Part shown: positions 9,001 through 12,000 of the stretch, piece by piece
Layout of the letters: every line of letters begins with the position of its first letter
How positions within the stretch are numbered: position 1 is the stretch's first letter
Virus record (IMG/VR): IMGVR_UViG_2534681832_000043
Reading direction: 5' to 3' (one strand)
DNA: 21,095 bases
Source: a virus
Taxonomy: Duplodnaviria; Heunggongvirae; Uroviricota; Caudoviricetes
Made by a program: the position numbers

Positions 9001-12000
9001 CAGTTGGCTTAATGATGGCGGTGCCGCAAAGTTGCTTTGGCATCTTAAAGGGGTGGATCTCTCAGGTTTTGACCCTCAACGAGCGCCACAGACCGATGCC
9101 TTACGTGAAGAAATCTTGCTGGGGCTGTCTGGCGTTGAATTGTTTCTTTATGGCGAGCTAATCAATGAACCTCCGTTTAATGGCGAAGTCCGTTTGTTTG
9201 CAAAGGATATGGTTAGTCGGTTTGTAGCGTGGTCGCTTGAGCGTGGGGAAAAGCTTAAAGAACCAGCTGCCAGATCACTACTGGGTAAATCACTTGCACA
9301 AATGGGGCTGGTGAAGCATGGAAGACCAGACCGAGGGAATGGCGTGTTCTACGAACTACCAGAGGTCGGAGTTCTACAGGCTGCGTTTGCCCGTCTGATC
9401 GGTATGGGGGGTTATGATGTTTTTTAATATAGTCTTTTTACAAGAAGATCGTTTTTACCTGTACCACCTATACCACTTTGCTAATTCGGCATTAAAAACA
9501 ATGTGTTATAGTGGTACAGGTCAATATCTTACCTATACCAGACCTGTACCACCTATACCATTAACAAACGCATTTCTTCTGGCTGGCTGAGAGGGAACAA
9601 CCAATGATGAGCACACCATTTTACAAAGTGCGCCAGTTAGCTTCTTCCTCTGGCTGGCAGCTACGGTTTGAGGGGCGTTCAGACTGGCTACCCATTGCGG
9701 CATGGGCGAATGTTGAAATGTGTATTGACGGCGATACCGTTGAAATCATTATTCCCTGCGTGGCAAGTCGGGACGGCTGTATAGAGCCAACAGATATGGC
9801 AGCAGAAATCAGAGAGGTAAAACATGAGCAATAACTATTGCATACCGCAGGGAATGACCAGAACGGAGCGCGAAGAATTAAAAAGTTTCGCTACACAGTG
9901 CGGGAATGCTGGCGACATCCAAAGTCTGGAACGCACTTTAATTATGATTGCGCACTGGATGCGTCAGGGGCAAAGGGTTTCATTTACTGAATATGCCAGC
10001 CAGTGGACAGAGGCACAGCGCGAACGGAGCGACGGTAATCACTCAACACCCGAAATGGCGAAGCAATGGCCTTTCAGTGGTAAACGCTGTATCAGTCCCG
10101 GTGGTTCAGATTATTACCCTGCTGGTGTGGGAGATGAGCCATGTTGTGACGAGACTGAAATCCGCCACGCAGTGACAGTAATTACCGCTGAATACCCACA
10201 ATTTAACCTTGACGGACTGGCGCTCCACAACCGGAATGCGGACTGGGAAAACCCGCTTGATAACCCGTCATTTATCGTATCGGCGAAAAGCTGCCTGAGA
10301 TGGATCAGAGACAACGGGATGAGTAATGCCCAGATTGAGAGCTTCCCGCAGGATAACCCCACATCTGACACGTTGAAGCATGAAGTGGAGCGATATAACC
10401 AGATAAACCACCAGCACAGTGATCACCCGCACTATATCCCCAACGGAGCATTTATTGCGGCGATGGTGGCAAGCGGCTACAAGGTTAAGCCAGCGGGAAG
10501 AATGAACGCATTTTTCAATATTTCAAAAAAGGGATTATGTGCTGCTATGGGTAAAAATTAAATAAATGGTACAGGTCTGTACAGGTGGGGAGAGGTCATT
10601 TTTACCCACCTGTACCACCTGCAGGCCGCGCCACACAAGGGTTTGTGACATGGTGGTACAGGTGGTACAGCAAAAACAGCGATTTTCTTTATAAGGTATG
10701 TTTTGCTCATCTGGCAGACGGAGGTATTCGCTGCGGTTTGGCACATAGCCCAGAATAGCAAAGAGTTTTACGAGACTTTTGTAAAATCCAGTGTACAAGG
10801 GCGTGACGTTTTTGAAAGTGAGCACTACGAAATTTTCGTAGTTCAAAAAACAGCCTCTGAGAAGTTGTTATGCCTGTTCAGCAAACCATCCGCATAGCTG
10901 ATCGCGAATCAAATTACCAATGGAGCCAGAAGCAAGGGCAGAACTGAAAAGCGCCTGCCGTGAAGAGTAATGCGACACCATAAATATAGTTTTTAGAGTC
11001 CATAAAAAACCTGTCAAAACCTGACACACAGAACGATGCCACCAGCTACTGAGCGGTGGCATTTTTTTGTGCTATTTGTTTCACATTTTGCAATGAATAT
11101 GATGAATATTGCGATTTGTGAAACTATAATAACTGTTGTTTTATACAGTTCTAAGGGGGCGTTATGGCTATTTCAGTAAAGCCGGTATTGATAAGTGAGA
11201 AGCAAATGGAAGCGATAAAGAAAATTCAGGAAGAGCAGCGTAAAAAATCAGGAATTGGAGTAGCGCCAACTCTGCATGAAATTGCACGAGGGTTAATAGA
11301 TAAGGCGCTGGCAGGCTGTATGTGAAAATGGATGGCATCGCATGGAACTAAAATTTATTGATAACCCTGTGCGATTACAGGCCTTTCTTAACGAGCCAGG
11401 CAATACCGAAAATATTGTTGAGCCGGGGCACACGTACTACATCAAGCCTGATGCGGTATATCTCGGCATCTACGAAGGATTGGTGCTGGCTGGCGTTCAT
11501 GAAGTGCGTAACTTCTGGCATAGCGTTGTTGAATGCCATGCGGTGTACGACCCCGGATTCCGTGGTGAATATGCACTGCAAGGGCATCGATTATTCTGCA
11601 AATGGCTTCTCGAAAACTCACCATTCCTTAACAGCATCACCATGGTTCCTGACACAACGAAATACGGACGGGCAATTATCCGTTTGCTTGGCGCTACCCG
11701 TGTTGGTCACCTTGATGATGCTTATATCAGATGTGGTAAACCCGTCGGCGTAACGCTTTATCAGTTAACTCGGCAACAATATAAGGAATTCAGCGAATGT
11801 TAATTACCCATATAGCTCATAAACATCTCAATCGCGCCGTATACGAAAAAGGCGGTGATGGTGGTGCCTCTAAAGCTCAGGCGAAGGCCCAGCAGCAGGC
11901 AATTGATTTGCAGCGCGAGCAGTGGAATACGGTGATGAATAATCTCAAGCCGTATGCAGAAGTCGGATTGCCTGCTTTACAACAACTACAAGGACTGATG

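What the first reader, a model, noticed from the sequence alone, without database searches (positions are those of the whole stretch)
9428..10680. Bipartite iteron clusters immediately downstream of the primase, resembling a P4 ori plus crr arrangement
Two clusters of the same core motif (CCTGTACC/GGTACAGG, with an ACCTATACCA variant) lie at 9457..9560 and 10567..10671, in both orientations, in AT-rich DNA right after the primase-helicase gene. P4 replication needs two iteron-bearing regions bound by alpha; here the two clusters are only about 1.1 kb apart.
Basis: partly seen in the sequence, partly recalled or inferred. Interest (0 to 1): 0.6.

Follow-up and report, generated by a model that had tools for sequence, protein, structure and literature searches.

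The report
Split replication origin of a phage satellite
The two repeat clusters are very probably the two halves of the replication origin of an E. coli phage-satellite island, laid out almost exactly like the ori and crr sites of satellite phage P4 but pulled 1 kb apart by two inserted genes; this is a well-supported new example of a known kind of origin rather than a new mechanism.

Summary
The motif, whose core is CTGTACCA/TGGTACAG, occurs far above chance. Within the window the exact 8-mer is found only in two clusters, at 9457-9560 (c1) and 10567-10676 (c2).

The window is an EcCIMP1-like phage-inducible chromosomal island (PICI) of E. coli, inserted between yicC and dinD. Its primase-helicase combines a P4-alpha-type primase domain, a DUF5906 SF3 helicase and a predicted C-terminal winged helix.

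- **c1** matches the P4 ori iteron layout almost base for base. Six sites read F F R F F F at offsets 0/9/53/74/85/94, against 0/10/53/75/86/96 in P4.
- **c2** resembles one P4 crr unit.
- **Conservation:** both modules follow homologues of the helicase/winged-helix half across many Gammaproteobacteria. Only the iterons and their spacing are conserved.
- **Separation:** the two modules are contiguous in Hafnia, Rahnella and Methylomonas. They are split by orf76 in Xenorhabdus, by orf76+orf245 here, and by about 6 kb in Pantoea. In three loci c1 lies upstream of the gene, as in P4.
- **Specificity:** sister islands with a different helicase half carry different iterons at the same place.

Binding and replication are inferred, not shown. 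This is a new member of a known kind, of moderate interest.

The parts
7073..9427 (+). Primase-helicase gene (784 aa ORF; RefSeq start at 7076). This is the presumed origin-binding initiator.
   Evidence: Pfam matches Zn_Ribbon_Prim, Toprim_3 and DUF5906. Residues 8-338 are 33% identical to the P4 alpha primase domain (E 1e-40; hhalign E 5.6e-53). Residues 476-655 match the helicase part of a PDB 'Primase' chain, 6k9c/6k9e (E 1.5e-10).
8990..9424 (+). Coding region for the C-terminal 145 residues, a predicted winged-helix domain and the candidate iteron reader.
8098..10761 (.). Replication cassette: helicase/winged-helix half of the gene, c1, orf76, orf245 and c2. It is exchanged as one block relative to the sister island EcCIMP1.
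   Evidence: In blastn against EcCIMP1 (L090), 95% identity stops at 8097 and 98.6% identity resumes at 10762.
9457..9560 (.). Cluster 1 (c1), the P4-ori-like module. Its six iterons are 9459-9466 F, 9468-9475 F, 9512-9519 R, 9533-9540 F, 9544-9551 F and 9553-9560 F, where F reads CTRTACCA on the + strand.
   Evidence: The same pattern occurs in 13 loci from different genera, with only the iterons conserved. E. coli alleles vary only outside the iterons.
9476..9511 (.). AT-rich 36-bp spacer between the first iteron pair and the inverted iteron. It is the candidate unwinding region.
   Evidence: GC is 31% here and 17% for the equivalent P4 ori spacer. Its length is conserved but its sequence is not. 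Most E. coli allelic differences fall in it.
9604..9834 (+). orf76, a conserved small gene nested between the origin halves. Function unknown.
   Evidence: Homologues of 41-74% identity occupy the same position in Buttiauxella, Pantoea and Xenorhabdus. There is no Pfam, PHROG, NCBIfam or PADLOC hit.
9824..10561 (+). orf245, the second nested gene. Function unknown; it has a possible C-terminal winged helix.
10567..10676 (.). Cluster 2 (c2), the P4-crr-unit-like module. Its sites are 10567-10574 R, 10578-10585 R (imperfect), 10610-10617 F, 10654-10661 R and 10663-10670 R, followed by an A5 run at 10672-10676.
   Evidence: It aligns with 15 other loci and is collinear with the contiguous origins of Hafnia and Rahnella.
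10625..10633 (.). GC-rich box GCCGCGCCA inside c2, between the F iteron and the distal R R pair. Role unknown.
   Evidence: It is conserved in most loci, including L088 and L040, whose iterons are different. It is not a conserved hairpin. It is absent in Xenorhabdus.

Best explanation
The two clusters are the two half-modules of the island's origin of replication.

**Proposed mechanism.** After the island is induced and excised, the island's own primase-helicase would bind the CTGTACCA iterons through its C-terminal winged-helix domain. It would assemble on c1 (a P4-ori-type array of 2 + 1 inverted + 3 sites) and on c2 (a crr-type array) and bring the two together. That contact is direct where the modules are contiguous; here it would need a loop of about 1 kb. 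The protein would then open the AT-rich spacer, load its SF3 helicase, prime with its Toprim domain and hand over to the host polymerase. The orf76-orf245 pair is a lineage-specific insertion between the halves, not part of the origin.

**Shown:** the motif statistics; the conserved architecture; the co-inheritance of the iterons with the helicase/winged-helix half; the cassette swap; and the predicted fold.

**Inferred:** binding, melting, looping and the need for both halves.
For: - **Position.** c1 starts 30 bp after the stop codon of the primase-helicase. PICI origins lie at this position, and that was shown experimentally for EcCICFT073 (PMC6092414). P4 crr also lies there.
- **Layout.** The c1 layout equals P4 ori: F F R F F F at 0/9/53/74/85/94 against 0/10/53/75/86/96. 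The c2 layout resembles a crr unit.
- **Conservation across genera.** In 33 loci that share the helicase/winged-helix half at 43-76% identity, CTRTACC clusters with the same geometry follow the gene in most. Many of these loci share no other gene with the window. Hosts range from Enterobacterales to Methylococcales and Alteromonadales. The one partner shared by all of these loci is therefore this protein half (a distant integrase, 22-31% identical, is detected in only some), and the host range makes a host factor unlikely.
- **Binding-site signature.** Only the iterons and the spacer lengths are conserved. E. coli alleles differ at 14 sites, none of them in an iteron.
- **Natural swap.** Islands with the same backbone and the same N-terminal primase domain, but a DUF927 or D5_N/Pox_D5 helicase half, carry TGAACCAAC or ATCCCTAC iterons instead. 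In L088 they sit in the same F F R F F F layout. The swapped block, 8098-10761, contains both clusters.
- **One unit.** c1 and c2 are contiguous and collinear in Hafnia, Rahnella and others, so they form one functional unit.
- **Fold.** The C-terminal domain is predicted to be a winged helix. This is the fold of the P4 alpha origin-binding domain (PMC2777425).
Against: - No experiment exists for this element or for its close sister. The EcCIMP1 paper does not mention an origin.
- The helicase and C-terminal parts are not detectably homologous to P4 alpha. The P4-family model TIGR01613 scores 19 bits against a cut-off of 108.7.
- c2 is a single unit with a GC-rich core, unlike the AT-rich duplicated crr of P4.
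- One relative (Erwinia, L036) shows c1 but no c2 within 7 kb.
- orf245 may itself carry a winged helix.
Confidence: 0.75

Rival explanations
1. Only c1 is the origin. c2 is a separate regulatory site bound by the same protein, for example for copy-number control by handcuffing, or as an operator for the downstream morphogenesis-like genes. On this view c2 is not needed for replication.
For: - c2 differs from c1 in layout and has a GC-rich core.
- L036 has c1 without a detectable c2.
- In EcCIMP1 and in this window, a second iteron cluster of the other type sits at the perC promoter region. This hints that such clusters can be regulatory.
- c2 lies at the boundary with the downstream gene block.
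Against: - c1 and c2 co-occur in nearly all loci, in a fixed relative orientation, and are directly contiguous in many.
- c2 travels inside the replication cassette.
- In the closest characterised analogue, P4, crr is annotated as the cis-required region for replication.
Confidence: 0.13
2. The repeats are operators for another DNA-binding protein of the island, such as orf245 (possible winged helix) or the AlpA-like regulator, and control expression of orf76-orf245 and the genes downstream.
For: - c1 lies upstream of orf76 and c2 lies upstream of the next gene block.
- The orf245 model gives weak winged-helix matches.
Against: - Most loci with the same iterons lack orf245, orf76 and a close AlpA homologue.
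- orf245 homologues of 66% identity sit next to completely different iterons in RepA-type PICIs.
- No sigma-70-like promoter was found in either cluster.
Confidence: 0.05
3. The clusters are terminal inverted repeats or recombination sites of a small mobile cassette carrying orf76 and orf245.
For: The outer ends of the two clusters are inverted copies: 9453-9476 against 10653-10676, 24 nt and 88% complementary. The gene content between them varies among relatives.
Against: - The same repeats exist, contiguous, where no cassette is present.
- In Xenorhabdus, orf245 lies outside the pair.
- No transposase or recombinase is enclosed.
- The inverted symmetry is a property of the origin itself and is shared with P4.
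Confidence: 0.02

Closest known systems
Satellite phage P4 replicon: alpha protein with ori and crr (NC_001609)
   Same: - One polypeptide combines a Toprim primase, an SF3 helicase and a C-terminal winged helix.
- The primase domain is homologous, at 33% identity.
- An iteron region sits directly 3' of the gene.
- There are two cis regions whose iterons run in both orientations, with a 9-10 bp tandem spacing.
- The c1 layout is virtually identical to P4 ori, and the c2 layout is like one crr unit.
- The distance between the two regions is variable and can be several kilobases. Some relatives have the P4 gene order c1 - primase - c2.
   Different: - The iteron sequence is CTGTACCA, not TGTTCACC.
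- The helicase and DNA-binding parts cannot be aligned with alpha.
- c2 is single and has a GC-rich box, whereas crr is two AT-rich 120-bp direct repeats.
- Both modules lie downstream of the gene here, only 1 kb apart.
- The element lacks the P4 genes sid, delta, psu, epsilon and cI.
Origins of Gram-negative PICIs, e.g. EcCICFT073 (Fillol-Salom et al. 2018, PMC6092414)
   Same: - The island type matches: int, an AlpA-like gene, pri-rep, rightward transcription and PerC.
- The origin lies immediately 3' of the initiator gene.
- There are sets of iterons around an AT-rich stretch.
- Iterons are specific to the initiator variant.
   Different: That paper describes a compact origin. Here the origin is split by two genes. 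The P4-type six-site layout and the second crr-like module were not noted in the text I could read; the figures are not held.
EcCIMP1, a PICI of E. coli MP1 mobilised by the P22-like phage Kapi1 (PMC11773190)
   Same: The backbone is 95-98% identical outside the replication cassette. Shared genes include AntA, DUF4222, Ash, small ORFs, the primase N-terminal domain, and DUF2824/gp7/gp20-like genes. A PerC gene is also present in both, with only 87% identity over the region just upstream of it.
   Different: - EcCIMP1 has a DUF927 helicase half and TGAACCAAC iterons.
- It has no orf76 or orf245.
- It uses a different integration site (tRNA-Thr near proA rather than yicC-dinD).
- Its origin is not described in the paper.

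Membership tests
P4-type replicon (alpha / ori / crr) | Initiator with an N-terminal DnaG/Toprim-type primase domain homologous to P4 alpha | tested here: met
   BLASTP gives 33% identity over residues 8-338, E 1e-40. hhalign gives E 5.6e-53.
P4-type replicon (alpha / ori / crr) | Helicase/C-terminal region belonging to the P4-family primase C-terminal model (TIGR01613) | tested here: not met
   The score is 19.2 bits against a cut-off of 108.7. No alignment to alpha extends beyond residue 338. The domain is an SF3 helicase of the DUF5906 type.
P4-type replicon (alpha / ori / crr) | C-terminal winged-helix origin-binding domain (PDB 1KA8) | tested here: inconclusive
P4-type replicon (alpha / ori / crr) | ori with six octamer iterons arranged 2 + 1 inverted + 3 | tested here: met
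   The offsets are 0/9/53/74/85/94 (F F R F F F) here and 0/10/53/75/86/96 in P4. The iteron sequence itself differs.
P4-type replicon (alpha / ori / crr) | Second cis region (crr) with iterons in both orientations, at a distance from ori | tested here: met
   c2 has the pattern R (R) F, 44 bp, R R, A-run. A P4 crr unit has R F F, 43 bp, R R, A-run. c2 is a single unit, not a 2 x 120 bp duplication. Separation in relatives is 0-6.8 kb.
P4-type replicon (alpha / ori / crr) | Both regions required in cis and bound by the initiator | not testable with these tools
   This needs replication and binding assays.
Gram-negative PICI origin (PMC6092414) | Origin immediately 3' of the replication initiator gene of an int-alpA-pri island | tested here: met
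   c1 begins 30 bp after the stop codon. The island has int, an AlpA-like HTH, a primase and PerC, and lies between yicC and dinD. The sister island EcCIMP1 is an experimentally shown PICI.
Gram-negative PICI origin (PMC6092414) | [quoted passage not shown] | tested here: met
   In c1, an iteron pair and an inverted iteron flank a 36-bp spacer of 31% GC. At larger scale, c1 and c2 form two sets.
Gram-negative PICI origin (PMC6092414) | Initiator-dependent autonomous replication of a pri-ori clone | not testable with these tools
   This was done for EcCICFT073 only.
Transposable cassette bounded by inverted repeats | Repeats present only with the cassette; an enclosed transposase; target-site duplication | tested here: not met
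   The repeats are contiguous in the absence of the cassette. No recombinase is enclosed.

The most novel reading that the evidence does not exclude
The two-module origin (a six-site ori-type array plus a crr-type array) would be an old, portable architecture. It would be shared by P4 and by a large group of primase-SF3 helicase-winged helix initiators across Gammaproteobacteria. Iteron specificity would be swapped together with the helicase half. The two modules could work at any distance from 0 to about 7 kb and could carry nested cargo genes.

In addition, extra or orphan iteron clusters would let initiators of co-resident islands regulate the virulence regulator PerC, or cross-talk with each other. 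The EcCIMP1-type cluster just upstream of perC, at 20171-20289, is the example in this window.
Probability: 0.25. Interest if true: 0.6.

Novelty: new member of a known kind. Interest (0 to 1): 0.4.

Why it matters
- **Testable origin.** The work gives a concrete origin for the EcCIMP1-like family of E. coli satellites. These islands are mobilised by P22-like phages and carry PerC and defence genes, and their replication has not been described.
- **Link between two origin types.** The compact PICI origin and the bipartite P4 ori/crr appear as two states of one architecture. Natural intermediates show separations of 0 bp, 0.3 kb, 1.1 kb and about 6 kb, and some have c1 upstream of the gene. These intermediates could be used to study how the two halves communicate.
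- **Possible tools.** PICI primase/origin pairs are already used as conditional replicons for DNA delivery (10.1101/2022.09.30.509847). The set of matched initiator halves and iterons found here (CTGTACCA, TGAACCAAC, ATCCCTAC) suggests candidate orthogonal pairs.

Tried and rejected
- **Rfam.** A scan of 9000-11400 gave only chance miRNA matches far below threshold, so the clusters are not a known RNA.
- **Promoters and terminators.** Nothing was found in either cluster.
- **GC box as a hairpin.** Folding of 13 orthologous spacers gave energies no better than shuffles, except in two Methylomonas loci. The hairpin idea was rejected.
- **Viral contig scan.** A scan with the 17-mer TGGTACAGGTGGTACAG returned at least 120 hits. 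Among the ten loci with the densest motif clusters, most show 9-bp periodic same-strand repeats that look like coding repeats, and only one locus (L197) has the helicase plus c1+c2. The scan says little about distribution.
- **P4 alpha beyond the primase domain.** No alignment was found by BLASTP or by hhalign with a single-sequence template.
- **Foldseek on the C-terminal model.** No significant hit.
- **orf76 and orf245.** No family was found in Pfam, PHROGs, NCBIfam, PADLOC or PDB sequences.
- **Structure prediction for orf245.** I repeated it with database homologues.
- **Mobile cassette reading.** I considered that the clusters are ends of a mobile cassette and rejected it, for the reasons given under the rivals.
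Full report
**The observation**

- GGTACAGG/CCTGTACC occurs six times in the 21,095-base window, against 0.28 expected. All six copies lie in the two stated clusters.
- With the C/T variant there are 11 copies, 9 of them in the clusters, against 0.61 expected.
- The 7-mer CTRTACC occurs 16 times against about 2.7 expected. Six copies fall within 105 bp, whereas no simulated sequence out of 300 had more than two.
- Tandem copies are 9 bp apart and both orientations occur.
- Cluster 1 (c1, 9457-9560) is AT-rich at 28-40% GC. Cluster 2 (c2, 10567-10676) has AT-rich edges but a GC-rich core.
- Rfam gives nothing meaningful, and no promoter-like or terminator-like site lies in either cluster.

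**The context**

The window is an integrated island between yicC and dinD of E. coli. Its gene order is:
- integrase, an AlpA-like HTH protein, AntA, DUF4222, Ash and several small ORFs;
- a 784-aa primase-helicase;
- c1, orf76, orf245, c2;
- about 500 bp without a gene;
- homologues of P22 gp14 (DUF2824), gp7, gp20 and gp16, then an AbiD-like gene and PerC.

The backbone is 95-98% identical to EcCIMP1. [quoted passage not shown] That paper does not describe an origin.

Each cluster, searched on its own, occurs in 130 of 5,426 complete E. coli genomes and only on chromosomes. The whole c1-orf76-orf245-c2 stretch with the primase 3' end is likewise found at 80% coverage or more in 130 genomes. 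The motif is therefore not a general genomic repeat.

**The protein next door**

- Residues 8-338 are homologous to the primase domain of P4 alpha: 33% identity and E 1e-40 by BLASTP, and E 5.6e-53 by hhalign.
- The rest is a DUF5906 SF3 helicase that does not align with alpha. It scores far below the cut-off of the P4-family model TIGR01613.
- Foldseek finds only weak winged-helix hits.
- P4 alpha also ends in a winged-helix origin-binding domain (PMC2777425). The domain order is therefore the same, but common descent of the C-terminal halves is not shown.

**Comparative evidence**

I searched one genome per species with an alignment of 22 homologues, which gave 79 loci.
- In 33 of them the helicase/winged-helix half is 43-76% identical to the window protein. 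Most of these carry clusters of the same core, CTGTACCA/TGGTACAG, right after the gene.
- The hosts include Buttiauxella, Pantoea, Hafnia, Rahnella, Erwinia, Proteus, Providencia, Xenorhabdus, Methylobacter, Methylomonas, Colwellia and Glaciecola.
- Many of these loci share no other gene with the window.
- The geometry is strikingly constant. Offsets are -0 -9 +54 -74 -85 -94 in the window, and the same to within 1-2 bp in L017, L023, L026 and L036.
- In an alignment of 13 c1 modules, only the iterons are conserved. The spacers keep their length but not their sequence.
- Among E. coli alleles, all 14 variable positions fall outside the iterons.
- This is the signature of phased protein-binding sites. 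The one partner shared by all of these loci is the helicase/winged-helix half (a distant integrase is detected in only some).

**One origin in two halves**

c1 and c2 have different, individually conserved layouts. Their separation varies among relatives.
- **Contiguous.** In Hafnia, Rahnella and an Enterobacterales MAG, and also in Methylomonas, Colwellia and others, they form one module of about 230 bp. The window's c1 joined to c2 aligns collinearly with that module. The break falls after ...CCTATACCATTAA (9563) and before ATAAATGG (10562).
- **Split by one gene.** In Xenorhabdus only orf76 lies between them, about 290 bp.
- **Split by two genes.** In E. coli and Buttiauxella, orf76 and orf245 lie between them, 1.1 kb.
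- **Split by about 6 kb.** This is the case in Pantoea.
- **c1 upstream.** In Xenorhabdus ehlersii (L007) c1 lies 2.3 kb upstream of the start of the primase-helicase gene, while c2 stays downstream. In two Methylococcaceae loci (L017, L027), where only the helicase/C-terminal half aligns to the window protein, c1 lies about 5-5.5 kb upstream of that matched region.
- **Exception.** One locus (Erwinia, L036) shows c1 only.

**A natural swap experiment**

Sister islands have the same backbone and an N-terminal primase domain 77-85% identical to the window's, but a different helicase half.
- With a DUF927 half the iterons are TGAACCAAC.
- With a D5_N/Pox_D5 half they are ATCCCTAC. In this case they sit in the same F F R F F F layout (0/10/58/76/86/96) and are followed by a c2-like module.
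- More distant helicases in Shewanella have ACGGGAACA or CTATGACCA iterons.
- Relative to EcCIMP1, the exchanged block in the window is 8098-10761. It comprises the helicase/winged-helix half, c1, orf76, orf245 and c2.
- Iteron identity therefore travels with the helicase/winged-helix half, not with the primase domain or the backbone.

**Comparison with P4**

In the annotated P4 genome, crr lies directly 3' of alpha and ori lies 4.7 kb away, upstream of the alpha operon.

I scanned both sequences in the sense of the initiator gene.
- P4 ori reads F F R F F F at 0/10/53/75/86/96.
- c1 reads F F R F F F at 0/9/53/74/85/94.
- Both arrays are preceded by TTTTAC, and both have an AT-rich spacer between the first pair and the inverted site.
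- A P4 crr unit reads R F F, 43 bp, R R, A-run.
- c2 reads R (R) F, 44 bp, R R, A-run.

The differences are these.
- The iteron sequence is different.
- c2 is a single unit, whereas P4 has two crr units.
- Most c2 modules contain a conserved GCCGCGCCA box that P4 lacks. The box is present even where the iterons differ (L088, L040), is absent in Xenorhabdus, and does not form a conserved hairpin. I cannot explain it.

**Comparison with PICI origins**

For Gram-negative PICIs, the region immediately 3' of pri-rep is the origin. It has two sets of iterons around an AT-rich stretch, and it was shown to work for EcCICFT073 (PMC6092414). Such a primase/origin pair is already used as a conditional replicon (10.1101/2022.09.30.509847).

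RepA-type PICIs in E. coli (L003-L005) show the same position with AAAGTGGGGAG or AAGTGAGG iterons. These are followed by a 66%-identical homologue of orf245.

**The nested genes**

orf76 and orf245 are conserved real genes without any family assignment.

- its close homologues sit beside unrelated iterons;
- most CTGTACCA loci lack it.

It may be an origin-associated accessory protein.

**Conclusion**

The best-supported reading is that c1 and c2 are the cognate binding arrays of the island's primase-helicase and together form its origin. The design is P4-like, and here the origin is split by a two-gene insertion (confidence 0.75).

The main rival is that c2 is regulatory rather than required for replication (0.13). 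Operators for another protein (0.05) and ends of a mobile cassette (0.02) are poorly supported.

Membership in the P4 alpha family holds for the primase domain and for the cis-site architecture. It fails for the helicase/C-terminal sequence. The element itself is a PICI of the EcCIMP1 type.

This is a new member of a known kind. Two side results are of moderate interest. First, the PICI-type compact origin and the P4-type bipartite origin look like states of one architecture. Second, the family offers matched initiator/iteron sets.

Noticed in passing
window 20171-20289 (just upstream of perC, ATG at 20327): A third iteron cluster of a different type lies here: TTGGTTC x3 at 21-bp spacing, an AT-rich stretch, then GAACCAA x3 at 9-bp spacing. 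It is an inverted copy of the origin of the DUF927-type sister island EcCIMP1. EcCIMP1 has the same second copy upstream of its own perC, 8.5 kb from its origin. In this window the cognate initiator half is absent, so the cluster is an orphan. It could be a relic, a perC control site, or a point of cross-talk with co-resident islands.
   Followed up: partly
window 10625-10633 and orthologous c2 modules (L006, L014, L022, L088, L040): The conserved GC-rich box GCCGCGCCA lies between the inverted iteron and the distal iteron pair of c2. It is kept even in elements whose iterons are different. It is not a conserved hairpin, and no explanation was found.
   Followed up: partly
window 7073-9427, breakpoint near 8097 (residue ~341): The primase-helicase is modular. 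One N-terminal primase domain (77-86% identical) is fused in different islands to three unrelated helicase halves: DUF5906, DUF927 and D5_N/Pox_D5. Each half comes with its own iterons.
   Followed up: yes
window 11342-17314: The satellite carries homologues of the P22 genes gp14 (DUF2824), gp7, gp20 and gp16, which include the phage's DNA-ejection proteins. It has no capsid or terminase genes. The same is true of EcCIMP1, whose helper is a P22-like phage. Why a satellite should encode its own ejection proteins was not pursued.
   Followed up: no
window 13351-14657: A 1.3-kb IS3-family insertion sequence (ORFs 13393-14283 and 14280-14606 on the minus strand) interrupts the gp20-like gene. That gene is intact in strain ETEC1721.
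   Followed up: yes
L085 (E. coli VE-T10), reverse-complement coordinates 21330-21560, about 470 bp downstream of perC: This strain has an extra copy of the 3' end of orf245, plus c2 and about 80 bp beyond, near the right end of the island. It may be a remnant of an earlier resident element or a duplicated half-origin. Several genomes show 2-3 places for c2.
   Followed up: partly
window 9824-10561; L003-L005: The orf245 family is small and mostly enterobacterial, and has no annotation. It always sits next to the origin of PICI-like islands, whatever the initiator type. It lies after the origin in RepA-type islands and in Xenorhabdus, and between the origin halves here. Its predicted structure has a possible C-terminal winged helix.
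   Followed up: partly
window 18648-19610: An AbiD/Abi_2 abortive-infection gene lies in the accessory region of the island.
   Followed up: no
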